A stretch of 31,197 bases of DNA, from contig DAHXLV010000009.1 of assembly GCA_027365815.1 (NCBI GenBank), positions 1 through 31,197 of the forward strand. The letters run 5' to 3'. This document shows positions 1 through 4,124 of this stretch, piece after piece (the stretch's first letter is position 1; each line of letters opens with the position of its first letter). The position numbers were made by a program, and so were the translations under genes. The notes under the pieces are model-generated. The model saw nothing but the letters and a program-made list of their open reading frames with translations, did no database searches and was not told the DNA's origin. Origin of the DNA: Candidatus Micrarchaeota archaeon. GTDB taxonomy: Archaea; Micrarchaeota; Micrarchaeia; Micrarchaeales; Micrarchaeaceae.

Positions 1-810
1 ATAGTGTCCAGTTCGCATGCCAGTGCAACCTGCCAGGGATATATGAGCTCCAATTATGAGATATGTTTCGCGTATAACTACCTGGTTGGGATACGCCCGG
101 TGGCCATAAATAACGCTAGCTACCCGTCCCTGCTCGACTCCTCGCTGGGGCTTCTGCTGCCGGTTTCTGGATTGTATATGATTCTGGGGGTTATATCCTC
201 TACGCAGCTCAACCTTGGGATAGCGTCCGTCTCGTTCTCCACGATCCTTGCCCCGGTGCTCTCCCAGGAGGACTTTATAATGACGGCGCTAACGTTTGCG
301 GTGATAAGCATATATACCCAATCTGCGCTGCTTGAGGTAATCTCCGTAGTAGCAATTCCGTTGCTGTTGCCGGTCGGCCTTATACTGAGGACCTTTTACC
401 CAACACGCAGGCTTGGCGGCACAGCGATAGCAATAGCGATTGGCCTGTTCGCCATCTTCCCGCTCACATACCTGCTTGATGCGCAGATAACCGCCTCGTA
501 TTCCGGCGCGATAAACCAGACCTCTGTGGGTGCATTCACGGTCCAGGCCCAGGGTGTTGAAGGAGGCCTCTTCTCTGCAAGCGCTTCCAATACCATTTCT
601 GGGCCGATAGGATCTCTTATCAATGGGGTGTCCGGCCTCGCCAGCTCTTTCACCGGGCTGATAAAGCAGCTGATAGACCTGCTTGCGGTCATATTGGTGC
701 AGGTTTTCTTCTTTCCGGTGCTCAGTGCGATTTTGACGATAACATCGATACGCGAACTTGCTAAAGTGCTCGGTTCTGAGGTTTCGCTGGGCAAGTTTGA
801 CATATTCTAG
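1..810 (+). CDS. Multi-pass membrane protein, VirB6/TrbL/CedA-like; 5'-truncated by the window edge
   Basis: The frame is open from base 1 (ATA GTG TCC). It has about 5-6 hydrophobic segments, and the segment LRTFYPTRRLGGTAIAIAIGLFAIFPLTY resembles from memory the PFxxGRxIGAxLIAxxIxFxxxLP region of archaeal CedA. It is first in an operon with a VirB4/HerA-type ATPase. Confidence 0.6.
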   Translation: MVSSSHASATCQGYMSSNYEICFAYNYLVGIRPVAINNASYPSLLDSSLGLLLPVSGLYMILGVISSTQLNLGIASVSFSTILAPVLSQEDFIMTALTFAVISIYTQSALLEVISVVAIPLLLPVGLILRTFYPTRRLGGTAIAIAIGLFAIFPLTYLLDAQITASYSGAINQTSVGAFTVQAQGVEGGLFSASASNTISGPIGSLINGVSGLASSFTGLIKQLIDLLAVILVQVFFFPVLSAILTITSIRELAKVLGSEVSLGKFDIF

Positions 811-817
811 TGTTGGC

Positions 818-1561
818 ATGAGATTCGACATCTATAAGCAAACGCCGCTTTTCATGGCAGGGCTAAGCGTTGGTGCTGCGCTCATCAGCGTCGTGACGCT
901 CAGCCCATACCTGATTGCTTTCACATCTTGCACTGCACTTACCGCCCTGGTCGCTTTCAAAGGGTGGGGCTTTATCGAGTCGTGGATATTCAAGCACACG
1001 AACTTGGTGCAGGTTTTCGGTGGCTTCGAGCTTTGCGGCAGCAGGGATGTGGTGGTCGCAAGATCTGGCAGTGGATATACAGCCACGTCGGCTGCTAGGC
1101 TGACCTCCTTGGGCCAAACAGAGGTAAGCAGGGATAGGGTAGAAAACCTTATAGCGCATGTGGGCGCCCCGTTCAAGCTCATTGCGCACGTGGAAAGGAT
1201 CGACGTGCAGCGCATGCTTGAGCGGCTTGTGACAAAAAAGGGTATGAAGGAGATCGAGCTATCAAGGATAGCGAGGCCGTCCTCTGGCAGGGGTCTGGCC
1301 GCAGCAGACAGGCTGAAGGCCGAAATAGCGTATCTCGACCACGAAATCGAGGGCATAAATGGCGGCGGGGTCCCGCTTGCGCTGGTTTATTACATGATGA
1401 CCAGCGCATACTCGGAAAGCAGGCATAAGGCGGAGGAGGAGGCAAGGCTGCAGGCCAGGGAGCTTACTTCAGAATTCGATGCAATTTTCGGTACAAAATC
1501 TTCGCAGCTGTCTGGCGAGGACATGGTTAGGATATTACGATTCGATTCTGTGATACCATGA
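818..1561 (+). CDS. Membrane-anchored protein (2 N-terminal TM helices plus a soluble coiled-coil domain); resembles the N-terminal half of VirB4-like ATPases
   Basis: The likely start is ATG 818, 7 nt after the upstream stop; the ORF-track extension to 758 overlaps the previous CDS. Its stop overlaps the ATPase start (ATGA, 1558-1561). Confidence 0.6.
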   Translation: MRFDIYKQTPLFMAGLSVGAALISVVTLSPYLIAFTSCTALTALVAFKGWGFIESWIFKHTNLVQVFGGFELCGSRDVVVARSGSGYTATSAARLTSLGQTEVSRDRVENLIAHVGAPFKLIAHVERIDVQRMLERLVTKKGMKEIELSRIARPSSGRGLAAADRLKAEIAYLDHEIEGINGGGVPLALVYYMMTSAYSESRHKAEEEARLQARELTSEFDAIFGTKSSQLSGEDMVRILRFDSVIP

Positions 1562-2664: not shown

Positions 2665-3286
2665 TGCTGGATTTTTCTCGTCTTTTTGGGTTGAAGGCAC
2701 TCTGAAGTGCAGCATGGCGCAGCTCAAAAAAAGATTATCTGGGATCCCGTCGCTGAGGCTGATCAGTCATGGGACCAGGCTCAGGTATGAGATGCTTGTT
2801 GATGGACCGAAGCACGTGCTAGAGCTGGAAGGGACAGGGCTTAGGCTGCTCTTTCATTTTGCAGAACCAAATGACAGGGCGTTCAGCCTGGGACTTCTCA
2901 GACTGTTTGCCGTGCTCGCAATCGTTGATGACCTTTATATGATAAAACTTGAAGCGATATACCGTTATGTGGTTGATGTGCTAAGCCACCAGCTGCCGCA
3001 ACTGCCGGCTGGGAGGCGTGATGATGCACTGGTAGGGCGTCTTTCCTACAACGTTGAAGCGTTGAGCTTTGCGAACTCAAAGCTCTCTCATGAGGTCTAC
3101 AACCTTACCGTGAGGAAAAAGCAGCTAAGCGAAGACCTTGAGGTATGCAGGGAGTTCTGTTTGCAGGTGCTCAAAGTAGCAAAGGCGAGGGGAGCGGAGG
3201 CGGCGGATGGCGCCGAACGCGTATTCGGGATTGACCGCACGCTTACAGAGAGTGTAGCTGCAATCGTTAAGAGGGGTGATGCCTGA
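2657..3286 (+). CDS. Hypothetical protein with a C-terminal coiled coil
   Basis: Long ORF overlapping the ATPase stop. The SD-like AAGGGTG (2644-2650) favours TTG 2657 over GTG 2648. A TGATG overlap couples it to the next gene. Confidence 0.65.
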   Translation: MPDAGFFSSFWVEGTLKCSMAQLKKRLSGIPSLRLISHGTRLRYEMLVDGPKHVLELEGTGLRLLFHFAEPNDRAFSLGLLRLFAVLAIVDDLYMIKLEAIYRYVVDVLSHQLPQLPAGRRDDALVGRLSYNVEALSFANSKLSHEVYNLTVRKKQLSEDLEVCREFCLQVLKVAKARGAEAADGAERVFGIDRTLTESVAAIVKRGDA

Positions 3287-3930
3287 TGGGAATCCTCCAC
3301 CTTGGCCTTCTTTATATACTGGTTGGCGGTACGGGGTGCATTGCAGTGATATTGCTATCGGACTGGAAAGTTTCTCACGGAGGCGTACGGATACAGGATA
3401 CATGCGAAATAAGGGCTAGGCGGGTATTCCACCATGATGACCTGGTTGCAATGTTTGCCTATGCGAAAGAGAGGAATGCAAGCCTGTTCGTGCTGAGCGC
3501 CGCAGCCGTGTCAAAAGGAGAGCTGGTAGATGCGGCGTCCGTGCGCCTCGGCGTTGCATCTGAGAACCAGGAGGCGTTATGGGATGAGATTTTGTACTCT
3601 GTGCAGAGTATGCCAAGAACAGGGACCATGCGTTTCGATGGCACCCGCCTTATTGCATACGAATCCGATGCGCGCGAACTTGCCGCAAGGGTAATGTATG
3701 ATTTTTGGGCATCTCGCGGGGGAGTGGCGCTCGCTAGGCAACCGGGTAGGTTCTTGAAAGCGAATAGGGTGGCTATTTTCCCAAGGTACGGGAGCTTGCG
3801 GCTCTTCGATAAGCTGTTTGTCCCATCCCGCGGCGATAAAGAAGCGCTAGGGCGCTTCCTAGGGTCATTTTCCGCTGAAGCGGCTTCGTTGCTGATTTCA
3901 ATTGTAAATGGAGTTGGCGTGATCTCTTGA
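3286..3930 (+). CDS. Hypothetical protein with a single N-terminal TM anchor
   Basis: SD GAGGGGTGAT lies 5 nt before the ATG. N-terminal hydrophobic helix LHLGLLYILVGGTGCIAVILL. No recognised motif. Confidence 0.7.
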   Translation: MGILHLGLLYILVGGTGCIAVILLSDWKVSHGGVRIQDTCEIRARRVFHHDDLVAMFAYAKERNASLFVLSAAAVSKGELVDAASVRLGVASENQEALWDEILYSVQSMPRTGTMRFDGTRLIAYESDARELAARVMYDFWASRGGVALARQPGRFLKANRVAIFPRYGSLRLFDKLFVPSRGDKEALGRFLGSFSAEAASLLISIVNGVGVIS

Positions 3931-4124
3931 TGCCGCTATTGCTTTTTATTGTAAGGCTTGGCGCAGCTGGGGGCGTAGTTATGCTGAACCTTGGTAATTT
4001 TGTAGGACTGCTACGGCACGAAGGAGGTGCGTTTATGGATGGCCTTTCCAAGAGCGCATTCGCCGGCGGAGTGGCCTTGCTGGTCATCTCTATGTGCGTT
4101 TTCGGTGCATTCCTTAAGGCTTAA
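3930..4124 (+). CDS. Small hydrophobic membrane protein (64 aa from ATG 3930, or 29 aa from ATG 4035)
   Basis: TGATG coupling at 3928-3932. A perfect SD AGGAGGTG (4022-4029) lies 5 nt before in-frame ATG 4035. The stop shares TTAA (4121-4124) with the convergent Rieske gene. Confidence 0.5.
   Translation: MPLLLFIVRLGAAGGVVMLNLGNFVGLLRHEGGAFMDGLSKSAFAGGVALLVISMCVFGAFLKA

What the first reader, a model, noticed from the sequence alone, without database searches (positions are those of the whole stretch)
1..4124. Six-gene membrane/ATPase operon: candidate minimal Ced/type IV-like DNA-transfer or host-contact machine in a DPANN-like archaeon
Seen: six co-directional genes with 7-nt gaps or ATGA/TGATG overlaps. 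They encode a VirB6/CedA-like multi-TM protein, a 2-TM coiled-coil protein, a VirB4/HerA-family ATPase, a coiled-coil protein, a single-TM protein and a tiny hydrophobic protein. Known: crenarchaeal Ced DNA import uses CedA (VirB6-like), CedB (VirB4/HerA-like) and small pilin-like CedA1/CedA2. Within this window there is no relaxase, integrase, nurA/mre11/rad50 or SIR2/nuclease partner, which argues against a plasmid, the HerA resection operon or a known HerA defence pair. Inference: a chromosomal translocation apparatus, possibly for host-symbiont DNA/nucleotide uptake or attachment. It may continue upstream of the window.
Basis: partly seen in the sequence, partly recalled or inferred. Interest (0 to 1): 0.8.

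Follow-up and report, generated by a model that had tools for sequence, protein, structure and literature searches.

The report
Conjugation-like pilus machine in Micrarchaeota
The first 4.1 kb of this acid-mine-drainage Micrarchaeota (DPANN) contig carry most of a chromosomal operon, conserved across the organism's order, that looks like a stripped-down relative of the bacterial conjugation / archaeal Ced-Ted DNA-transfer machine with its motor ATPase split into two genes; it is a candidate for how these tiny symbiotic archaea exchange macromolecules with other cells.

Summary
The six co-directional, tightly coupled genes are real.

- **Upstream:** the contig end cuts the operon. In 27 of 27 related loci the gene before ORF1 is a VirB2-type pilin (Pfam T4SS_pilin in 18 of 20).
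- **ORF4-6:** lineage-specific proteins with no detectable relatives.
- **Context:** the flanks are core metabolic genes. No relaxase or integrase was seen in the flanks annotated. The order pilin-ORF1-ORF2-ATPase-ORF4 holds across two families of the order. Most relatives add a second 735-785-aa ATPase, which lies on another contig here.

The cargo (DNA or something else) and any host link are inferred only; no RNA run held the stretch. I found no paper describing this system in Micrarchaeota. This scan has already noted the same operon in many other Micrarchaeota genomes.

The parts
1..810 (+). ORF1, 5'-truncated by the contig end (269 of about 330-345 aa): polytopic membrane protein, probable CedA/VirB6-like platform or channel
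818..1561 (+). ORF2 (247 aa): N-terminal TM hairpin (VirB3-like by position, inferred) plus a cytoplasmic domain with the fold of the second half of the VirB4 N-terminal domain
1558..2664 (+). ORF3 (368 aa): FtsK/HerA/VirB4-superfamily P-loop ATPase domain, the C-terminal half of a split VirB4. It lacks the roughly 90-aa insertion present in many orthologues.
   Evidence: Pfam DUF87 3e-15, AAA_10, TrwB_AAD_bind and TraG P-loop. NCBIfam CedB 2e-15 and CedD 5e-13, both far below cut-off. Catalytic motifs are invariant. The insertion is mapped. The complex with ORF2 has weak support: 0.36 against controls at 0.00.
2648..3286 (+). ORF4 (212 aa from GTG 2648, or 190 aa from ATG 2714): conserved soluble protein with a helical, coiled-coil-like C-half and unknown role
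   Evidence: Profile hits in 19 of 20 relatives fetched first and 7 of 7 fetched later, always directly after the ATPase. No Pfam, NCBIfam, PDB or Atlas relative was found.
3286..3930 (+). ORF5 (214 aa): bitopic protein with an N-terminal TM helix, fast-evolving, unknown role
   Evidence: TM at 6-24. Profile hits at this position in 12 of 20 and then 6 of 7 relatives, with lengths of 180-338 aa. No known relatives.
3930..4124 (+). ORF6 (64 aa): small 2-TM protein, restricted to the own genus and one further locus
   Evidence: TM segments at 1-19 and 44-62. Homologues were found in only 4 distinct related loci.

Best explanation
Window 1-4124 is the larger part of a chromosomal, vertically inherited operon of Micrarchaeota. 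It encodes a machine derived from the type IV secretion (conjugation) apparatus, of the same kind as the archaeal Ced and Ted systems.

Parts, in operon order:
- A VirB2-type pilin with a signal-peptide-like N-terminus. It is lost here at the contig end but present in all relatives.
- ORF1, a polytopic CedA/VirB6-like membrane platform.
- ORF2, which anchors a VirB4 N-domain in the membrane by a helical hairpin.
- ORF3, which supplies the VirB4-type ATPase domain. ORF2 and ORF3 together reconstitute a split VirB4 motor.
- ORF4-6, lineage-specific accessory subunits: one cytoplasmic, one bitopic and one small 2-TM protein.

Proposed working (inferred by analogy with VirB4/VirB6/VirB2 in T4SS and Ced/Ted):
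1. The ORF2/ORF3 motor docks under the ORF1 platform.
2. It extracts pilin from the membrane to build a hollow conjugative-type pilus.
3. The pilus and platform then serve as a conduit for macromolecule transfer between cells. The cargo is most likely nucleic acid.
4. A second 738-aa HerA/FtsK-like ATPase helps. It lies in the operon in most relatives and on contig C36 here.

Shown: the homology and fold of the parts, the operon conservation, and the chromosomal context. Inferred: assembly, pilus formation, cargo and direction.
For: Operon and synteny
- The order pilin-ORF1-ORF2-ATPase-ORF4 holds in 20 of 20 and then 7 of 7 loci from families f1 and f2.
- Flanks are core genes. A 414-kb contig has citrate synthase, MDH and aconitase upstream, and the same Rieske, aldo-keto reductase, cytochrome bd, DJ-1 and PCNA genes downstream as the window.

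Pilin
- 18 of 20 orthologues match PF18895 T4SS_pilin (best 4.8e-7).
- 11 of 20 match TrbC/VirB2.
- Two hydrophobic helices are joined by a conserved GQxxPPDKRANFH loop, after a signal-peptide-like N-terminus.

ORF2
- It has the VirB4 N-domain fold.

ORF3
- Its best matches are CedB and CedD, then VirB4 and HerA models.
- Its ATPase motifs are conserved.

ORF2-ORF3 binding
- Weak support: ipSAE 0.36 against a best control of 0.00. In calibration the mark was reached by 58 of 80 solved complexes and 2 of 110 mismatches. Scores of 0.60 or less were seen in only 7 of those 80 and in both mismatches that passed.

ORF1
- VirB6 is the top structural hit.
- A CedA/CedE link runs through paralogues.

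Precedent
- CedB and CedD divide the VirB4 N-domain between two proteins (PMC11868833).
- Ced and Ted are domesticated, chromosomal VirB2 + VirB6 + VirB4 sets (PMC9905601).
Against: - The CedA link is transitive and weak, at about 1e-5.
- The pilin gene is not in this window or anywhere in the 57%-complete assembly.
- No VirD4, relaxase, VirB8 or VirB1 homologue was recognised.
- ORF4-6 are unexplained.
- There is no expression evidence: three metatranscriptome runs of the same study were listed and none was shown to hold the stretch. The two that were laid put no contigs on it.
- Nothing bears directly on cargo or direction.
Confidence: 0.72

Rival explanations
1. It is the same T4SS-derived machine, but its job is not DNA import. 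It builds an adhesive or contact pilus, or a conduit for proteins, lipids, nucleotides or other metabolites between the Micrarchaeon and its Thermoplasmatales-type host.
For: - No relaxase, coupling protein or DNA-processing gene lies in or beside the operon.
- The operon is retained in very small genomes of host-dependent archaea: the ORF2 family is in 132 of 150 genomes that are at least 90% complete.
- Pili-like connections between ARMAN cells and wall-less hosts have been reported. Exchange of macromolecules has so far only been speculated (PMC5498576).
- A similar question is open for the relaxase-less T4SS of Patescibacteria (PMC12102498).
Against: - The characterised archaeal relatives named in the papers read here, Ced and Ted, are described as DNA importers (PMC9905601).
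- Two FtsK/HerA-superfamily ATPases are typical of nucleic-acid pumps.
- Nothing in the sequence points to a specific non-DNA cargo.
Confidence: 0.3
2. It is a decayed or integrated conjugative element (MPF-FATA-type plasmid or ICE remnant), not a cellular system.
For: - The VirB2, VirB4 and VirB6-type parts are the hallmark of conjugative elements.
- In one family-f2 locus the operon is flanked by AbiEii toxin genes.
- Genomic islands with putative conjugative elements were proposed in Mia14 (PMC5498576).
Against: - The gene order is the same in 27 of 27 loci across two families, and identity falls with taxonomic distance (59% in the genus to about 30% in f2).
- Within the genus the flanks are conserved core metabolic genes.
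- No integrase, relaxase or replication gene appeared in the flanks I annotated.
- GC content is like the rest of the window.
Confidence: 0.04
3. ORF3 is a HerA-type helicase for DNA end resection or an anti-phage HerA, and the membrane genes are unrelated neighbours.
For: - The Pfam hit is to the HerA central domain.
- The best sequence hits in the PDB are defence or repair HerA proteins at 3e-6 to 3e-3.
- NCBIfam HerA_antiphage scores 1e-10.
Against: - ORF3 has no HAS-barrel N-domain. It starts about 55 residues before Walker A.
- The translationally coupled upstream gene supplies a VirB4-type N-domain instead.
- No NurA, Mre11, Rad50, Sir2 or nuclease partner is present.
- Coupling with the membrane genes is invariant.
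Confidence: 0.03
4. It is a membrane complex of a new kind that only shares a generic P-loop motor and small hydrophobic proteins with T4SS. The resemblance to VirB2 and VirB6 would then be convergent or due to chance.
For: - ORF4-6 have no relatives.
- hhalign found no pilin/ORF1 N-terminal relationship of the kind reported for CedA1/CedA.
Against: Three independent parts point to the same known system, and in the canonical gene neighbourhood:
- the pilin family in 18 of 20 orthologues;
- CedA/CedE hits on paralogues.
Confidence: 0.08

Closest known systems
Ted system of Thermoproteales (TedC pilin, TedA, TedB; Beltran et al. 2023, PMC9905601)
   Same: Both are chromosomal, domesticated sets of a VirB2-like pilin, a VirB6-like polytopic protein and a VirB4-like ATPase, without a relaxase. 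The pilin has a cleavable-looking N-terminal signal sequence, as TedC does (PMC9905601).
   Different: - No detectable sequence similarity to the Ted proteins was tested or found here.
- The VirB4 is split into ORF2 and ORF3.
- The partner genes differ: ORF4-6 and a 738-aa second ATPase here, against ParA, Rad50 and HerA neighbours in Ted.
- The host is a DPANN symbiont, not a free-living hyperthermophile.
Ced system of Sulfolobales (CedA, CedA1, CedA2, CedB, plus CedD and CedE; PMC11868833)
   Same: - The best NCBIfam models for ORF3 are CedB and CedD.
- ORF1-family paralogues hit CedA and CedE.
- There are two superfamily ATPases per system.
- The VirB4 N-domain is divided between polypeptides.
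- The location is chromosomal.
   Different: - Scores lie far below the equivalog cut-offs (56 bits against 700).
- Here the N-domain is a separate membrane-anchored protein rather than being shared between two full ATPases.
- Gene order and accessory proteins differ.
- No evidence of UV or DNA-damage regulation was sought or found in the sequence.
- The CedA1/CedA N-terminal similarity was not reproduced.
Monoderm conjugative T4SS (MPF-FATA), including the relaxase-less T4SS of Patescibacteria (PMC12102498)
   Same: Both have a VirB4 with the CagE/TrbE/VirB-type N-domain, a small TM partner next to VirB4 (VirB3/PrgI-like), a VirB6-like polytopic protein, and in some cases VirB2-like pilins. 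Like this system, the Patescibacteria T4SS sits in an ultra-small episymbiont and mostly lacks a relaxase.
   Different: No VirD4, VirB8-like, VirB1-like hydrolase or relaxase was recognised. VirB4 is split at the junction between its N- and C-domains. The system is vertically inherited among core genes rather than carried on plasmids or ICEs.

Membership tests
T4SS-derived machines (shared core of conjugative T4SS, Ced and Ted) | VirB4-type ATPase: FtsK/HerA-superfamily P-loop domain preceded by the VirB4 (CagE/TrbE/VirB) N-domain | tested here: met
T4SS-derived machines (shared core of conjugative T4SS, Ced and Ted) | VirB2/TrbC-type pilin encoded with the system | tested here: met
   The pilin is not in the window, because the contig end cuts it off. 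In relatives, 18 of 20 genes directly upstream of ORF1 match PF18895 and 11 of 20 match PF04956. The best scores sit at the gathering threshold (26.9 against 26.6 bits). A near-identical contig in run X2 extends 3.5 kb upstream.
T4SS-derived machines (shared core of conjugative T4SS, Ced and Ted) | VirB6/CedA/TedA-type polytopic membrane protein | tested here: inconclusive
Ced system (Sulfolobales), as equivalogs | Proteins reach the NCBIfam equivalog cut-offs for CedA, CedB, CedD and CedE | tested here: not met
   CedB scores 56 bits against a cut-off of 700, and CedD 49 against 600. ORF1 has no CedA hit. The system is not a Ced orthologue; it is at most a distant relative.
Ced/Ted systems | Chromosomal ('domesticated') location without relaxase or integrase | tested here: met
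   Core metabolic genes flank the operon on both sides on a 414-kb contig. The downstream synteny is the same in the window. No mobile-element genes appeared in the flanks I annotated.
Ced/Ted systems | Mediates import or exchange of cellular DNA | not testable with these tools
   This needs genetics or transfer assays in co-culture. None of the three listed metatranscriptome runs was shown to hold the stretch, and the two that were laid put nothing on it.
Conjugative T4SS (plasmid or ICE) | Relaxase plus VirD4-type coupling protein | tested here: not met
   None was found in the window or the annotated flanks. The second ATPase (738 aa) matches only HerA-type models weakly (8wiv at 1.5e-7; CedB at 9e-6) and no VirD4 or TraG family above threshold.
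HerA-NurA repair helicase / anti-phage HerA pairs | HAS-barrel N-domain and an adjacent NurA, Mre11-Rad50, or Sir2/DUF4297 partner | tested here: not met
   ORF3 starts about 55 residues before Walker A. The coupled upstream gene has the VirB4 N-domain fold. No such partner genes are present. The HerA equivalog models score at most 41 bits against cut-offs of 800-970.

The most novel reading that the evidence does not exclude
This split-VirB4 / VirB2 / VirB6-like operon, together with its paralogous loci found across Micrarchaeota, is the long-sought physical conduit of the DPANN lifestyle. In this reading it forms a domesticated conjugation-type pilus through which the symbiont takes nucleic acids or other macromolecules from its Thermoplasmatales host. 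That would be cross-species uptake, not the within-species DNA repair exchange seen with Ced.
Probability: 0.15. Interest if true: 0.9.

Novelty: new variant of a known kind. Interest (0 to 1): 0.6.

Why it matters
How DPANN archaea connect to their hosts or neighbours, and what passes between them, is an open question. Published work on Micrarchaeota only speculates about pili, pores and 'conjugative elements' (PMC5498576). This operon offers a concrete, testable parts list: a pilin to look for in purified filaments and cryo-ET, and a split motor to tag or deplete. It is near-universal in the organism's order.

It would also extend domesticated conjugation-type machinery beyond Thermoproteota, the lineage of the published Ced and Ted systems. 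It shows a clean natural split of VirB4 at the junction between the N- and C-domains, and it parallels the relaxase-less T4SS of the bacterial ultra-small Patescibacteria.

Caveat: this scan has already recorded the same operon in many other Micrarchaeota genomes, so this window adds another copy. That copy is truncated, lacks the insertion, and has the second ATPase relocated.

Tried and rejected
- **Pfam and NCBIfam on ORF1, 2, 4, 5 and 6:** nothing.
- **Profile searches of the ORF1, ORF2, pilin and ORF4 families against PDB sequences:** only noise.
- **Foldseek of the ORF1-orthologue model against the PDB:** no significant hit. The Atlas shape search returned only Micrarchaeota hypotheticals.
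- **hhalign of the pilin family against the ORF1 family,** testing the CedA1/CedA N-terminal relationship reported by Beltran et al.: no relationship, prob 0.4.
- **Atlas language-model search for ORF5 and ORF4:** no usable hit for ORF5, and only sub-0.85 coiled-coil-like noise for ORF4.
- **Complex prediction of ORF3 with ORF2:** 'weak support' only. The score was 0.36 against a best control of 0.00. The mark was reached by 58 of 80 solved complexes and 2 of 110 mismatches, but scores of 0.60 or less are more often wrong than right without a strong prior. I use it only as a minor point.
- **RNA evidence:** three metatranscriptome runs of the same study were listed and none was shown to hold the stretch. 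The two that were laid put no contigs on it. That is no proof of silence.
- **The 511-536-aa ATPases of other families (f4):** they stand alone, without pilin, ORF1 or ORF2, so they are paralogues and not this operon.
- **One literature search:** badly chosen terms, uninformative.
- **Rejected readings:** the HerA repair or defence reading and the integrated-plasmid reading, for the reasons given under rival explanations.
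Full report
**1. What is in the sequence**

The window is the first 31,197 nt of contig C3 of a 477-kb, 57%-complete genome bin. The DNA is held by acid-mine-drainage metagenome runs. The closest named relatives are Micrarchaeota MAGs. Positions 1-4124 carry six + strand ORFs:

| ORF | Coordinates | Length |
|---|---|---|
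| ORF1 | 1-810, open at the contig end | 269 aa |
| ORF2 | 818-1561 | 247 aa |
| ORF3 | 1558-2664 | 368 aa |
| ORF4 | 2648 or 2714 to 3286 | 212 or 190 aa |
| ORF5 | 3286-3930 | 214 aa |
| ORF6 | 3930-4124 | 64 aa |

The TGATG at 2662-2666 is out of frame for ORF4. ORF4 most likely starts at GTG 2648 and overlaps ORF3 by 17 nt, because relatives conserve residues encoded upstream of ATG 2714. An independent gene call on the ENA copy of the contig lists the same six genes.

**2. The operon is cut by the contig end, and a pilin gene precedes it in relatives**

On a 414-kb contig of a relative whose ATPase is 55% identical, the cluster reads as follows:
- a 119-aa gene;
- a 328-aa ORF1 homologue;
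- a 247-aa ORF2 homologue;
- a 370-aa ATPase;
- a 189-aa and a 213-aa protein.

TCA-cycle genes lie upstream of that cluster. Downstream lie the same genes as in the window: Rieske, aldo-keto reductase, cytochrome bd, DJ-1 and PCNA.

I fetched 20 further loci from two families of the same order, then 7 loci with a longer ATPase form. Iterated profile searches found the order pilin, ORF1, ORF2, ATPase, ORF4 in all 27.

The 119-135-aa upstream gene has these features:
- It matches Pfam T4SS_pilin (PF18895) in 18 of 20 orthologues and TrbC/VirB2 (PF04956) in 11 of 20. The best scores lie right at the gathering cut-off.
- Its alignment shows a signal-peptide-like N-terminus, two hydrophobic helices joined by a conserved GQxxPPDKRANFH loop, and C-terminal NxT sequons.

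In this strain the upstream DNA exists but was not assembled into the bin. A near-identical contig in run X2 extends 3,508 nt beyond the window start. The loose end in run X1 translates (my reading) to LGVSMINGVV, which continues ORF1 exactly as in the orthologue. No pilin gene is found anywhere in the assembled 477 kb.

**3. ORF2 + ORF3 form a split VirB4-type ATPase**

ORF3:
- It is a P-loop ATPase of the FtsK/HerA/VirB4 superfamily (Pfam DUF87 3e-15, AAA_10, TrwB_AAD_bind, TraG P-loop).
- Walker A, Walker B, REGRK and ATQ motifs are invariant in 21 orthologues.
- Its best NCBIfam models are CedB (2e-15) and CedD (5e-13), ahead of anti-phage HerA, VirB4-like and HerA models. All lie far below the equivalog cut-offs.
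- It begins only about 55 residues before Walker A, so it has no N-domain of its own.

ORF2:
- It is translationally coupled to ORF3 by an ATGA overlap.
- It was modelled at pLDDT 81.6 as a two-helix membrane hairpin followed by an alpha/beta domain.
- Its eight best Foldseek matches in the PDB are all TrwK/VirB4 of plasmid R388, with probability 1.00.
- The Atlas shape search independently returns archaeal HerA_C/DUF87 ATPases of Thermoproteota, 'Archaeal TraC-like', CagE_TrbE_VirB and VirB4 clusters.

ORF2 therefore supplies the membrane-proximal half of the VirB4 N-domain, on a separate and membrane-anchored polypeptide. Calling the hairpin 'VirB3-like' rests on position and on a sub-threshold PrgI lead, so it is inference.

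A complex prediction of ORF3 with ORF2 gave only weak support. The score was 0.36 against a best control of 0.00. The mark was reached by 58 of 80 solved complexes and 2 of 110 mismatches, but low passes of this kind are unreliable.

There is a precedent for dividing the VirB4 N-domain. CedB and CedD of Sulfolobales each carry a different part of it (PMC11868833).

Many orthologues have an extra insertion of about 90 residues between Walker A and Walker B. It is replaced here by a short Gly-rich stretch.

**4. ORF1 is probably CedA/VirB6-like, but this is the weakest link**

Direct tests gave little:
- ORF1 and the L045 orthologue gave no Pfam or NCBIfam hit.
- The model of the full-length L004 orthologue has pLDDT 69 and has no significant Foldseek match. 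TrwI/VirB6 is rank 11 at E 0.47.

Two lines point to CedA/VirB6:
- The ORF1 profile finds 2,237 cluster representatives. Of 40 distant members, 3 hit NCBIfam CedA (best 1.6e-4) and 1 hits CedE (1.2e-5).

The CedA model also hits 17 of 61 genomes of the order at 2e-6 to 4e-3. For the six loci I fetched, these hits fall in tandem arrays of ORF1-family paralogues (A1 profile E 1e-8 to 1e-13). In the three genomes I could compare, they lie at loci other than this operon.

Together with the position between a VirB2-type pilin and a VirB4, I rate ORF1 as CedA/VirB6-like at about 70%. The pilin/platform N-terminal similarity reported for CedA1 and CedA was not reproduced.

**5. The other genes**

- **ORF4** is conserved at its position in 26 of 27 relatives.
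- **ORF5** is recognisable in 18 of 27 and evolves fast.
- **ORF6** is confined to the genus and one more locus.
- None of the three has any relative in Pfam, NCBIfam, PDB sequences or the Atlas. I had no fold jobs left for them.

Most relatives carry a second ATPase of 735-785 aa, 0.1-1.1 kb downstream of the ORF4/ORF5 genes. In this genome its orthologue lies on contig C36, at 132-2348. It matches only HerA-type proteins and CedB/CedD, and weakly.

The genome also holds a paralogous module on contig C49: two ORF2-like genes, a 506-aa ATPase and an ORF4-like gene.

**6. Distribution and context**

- Orthologue-grade ATPase hits occur through families f1 and f2.
- The ORF2 family is found in 132 of 150 genomes of the phylum that are at least 90% complete. 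It is usually present in 2-3 copies, and several families (f10, f15 and most of f11) have none.
- Identity declines with taxonomic distance. The flanks annotated in the genus are core metabolic genes, and no integrase or relaxase was seen in any annotated flank. This fits vertical inheritance of a cellular system and argues against a plasmid remnant.
- The HerA-NurA and HerA-defence readings fail on domain architecture and partners.

**7. Mechanism, and what is inferred**

Shown: the parts list, the folds and homologies as graded above, tight coupling, conservation and chromosomal location.

Inferred by analogy with T4SS and Ced/Ted (PMC9905601; PMC9259494 for the R388 architecture):
1. The membrane-anchored ORF2/ORF3 motor docks on the ORF1 platform.
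2. It drives pilin extraction and pilus growth.
3. The assembly transfers macromolecules between cells.

DNA is the default cargo, by analogy and because there are two FtsK/HerA-type motors. Nothing here tests cargo, direction or partner cell. No transcript evidence was obtained.

**8. Novelty**

In the searched library, no paper links Micrarchaeota with VirB2, VirB4, VirB6 or Ced/Ted. Golyshina et al. 2017 only speculate about DNA exchange through pili or pores. The Ced/Ted papers I read (no occurrence of 'DPANN' or 'Micrarchae') do not mention DPANN. The Patescibacteria T4SS paper names DPANN only in a cited title.

This scan has already flagged the same compact operon, and a larger paralogous locus, in many other Micrarchaeota genomes. 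A later check of one such report (e1-2301632) found that a claimed phylum-wide fixed arrangement did not hold for the larger locus. My own counts support conservation of this compact operon across the order (f1 and f2). Across the whole phylum they support only the presence of the ORF2 family.

I class the finding as a new variant of a known kind, a Ced/Ted-like domesticated T4SS derivative. This window holds a truncated copy of it.

Noticed in passing
G000 contig C49:1-4380 (L055): This is a paralogous module elsewhere in the same genome. It holds two tandem ORF2-like genes (A2 profile 1e-11 and 6e-16), a 506-aa DUF87/TraG-P-loop ATPase (A4 profile 3e-68) and an ORF4-like gene (1e-4). It is probably part of the larger T4SS-like locus that other reports of this scan describe.
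   Followed up: partly
G000 contig C36:132-2348 (L057): A 738-aa ATPase whose orthologues lie 0.1-1.1 kb downstream of the operon's ORF4/ORF5 genes in 16 of 27 relatives but which is unlinked here. It has no Pfam hit. Weak matches are to HerA (PDB 8wiv, 1.5e-7) and CedB/CedD. Its N-terminal region of about 290 aa is uncharacterised.
   Followed up: partly
window 1855-1930 (ORF3 residues ~100-125): A Gly-rich stretch (GGGEASCAGAGS) sits where orthologues in several genera carry a roughly 90-residue insertion between Walker A and Walker B. The short form also occurs in another genus (L045), so the insertion was lost or gained more than once.
   Followed up: partly
window 2560-2661 (ORF3 C-terminal ~90 aa): A conserved helical C-terminal tail (DLxxLVxFLxxLGLxRxxIVxYLRALGVxD) follows the ATPase core. 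It looks helix-turn-helix-like and could be a DNA-binding or docking module. It was not modelled.
   Followed up: no
L059-L064 (relatives G047, G026, G186, G021, G102, G015): Tandem arrays of 2-4 ORF1-family paralogues (283-409 aa) at loci separate from this operon. These are the genes that the NCBIfam CedA model hits at 2e-6 to 2e-5.
   Followed up: partly
L053:2228-2890 and 11040-11813: In one family-f2 relative the operon is bracketed by two AbiEii-type toxin genes (type IV toxin-antitoxin nucleotidyltransferases, 3e-15 and 3e-25).
   Followed up: no
relatives of family f2 (e.g. G019:C17:8885-9580, G024:C2:70517-71221, G171:C23:9683-10381): Several ORF2 matches in f2 genomes are reported with one in-frame stop, mostly TAG. 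This may be an alignment running over the upstream gene's stop, or something about these genes. It was not examined.
   Followed up: no
window 4121-10147: Directly downstream lie a Rieske protein (minus strand, 4121-4438), an aldo-keto reductase, a GATase/phosphoribosyltransferase-type enzyme and cytochrome bd oxidase subunits I and II (7902-10147). This set of genes is conserved with the genus relative.
   Followed up: no
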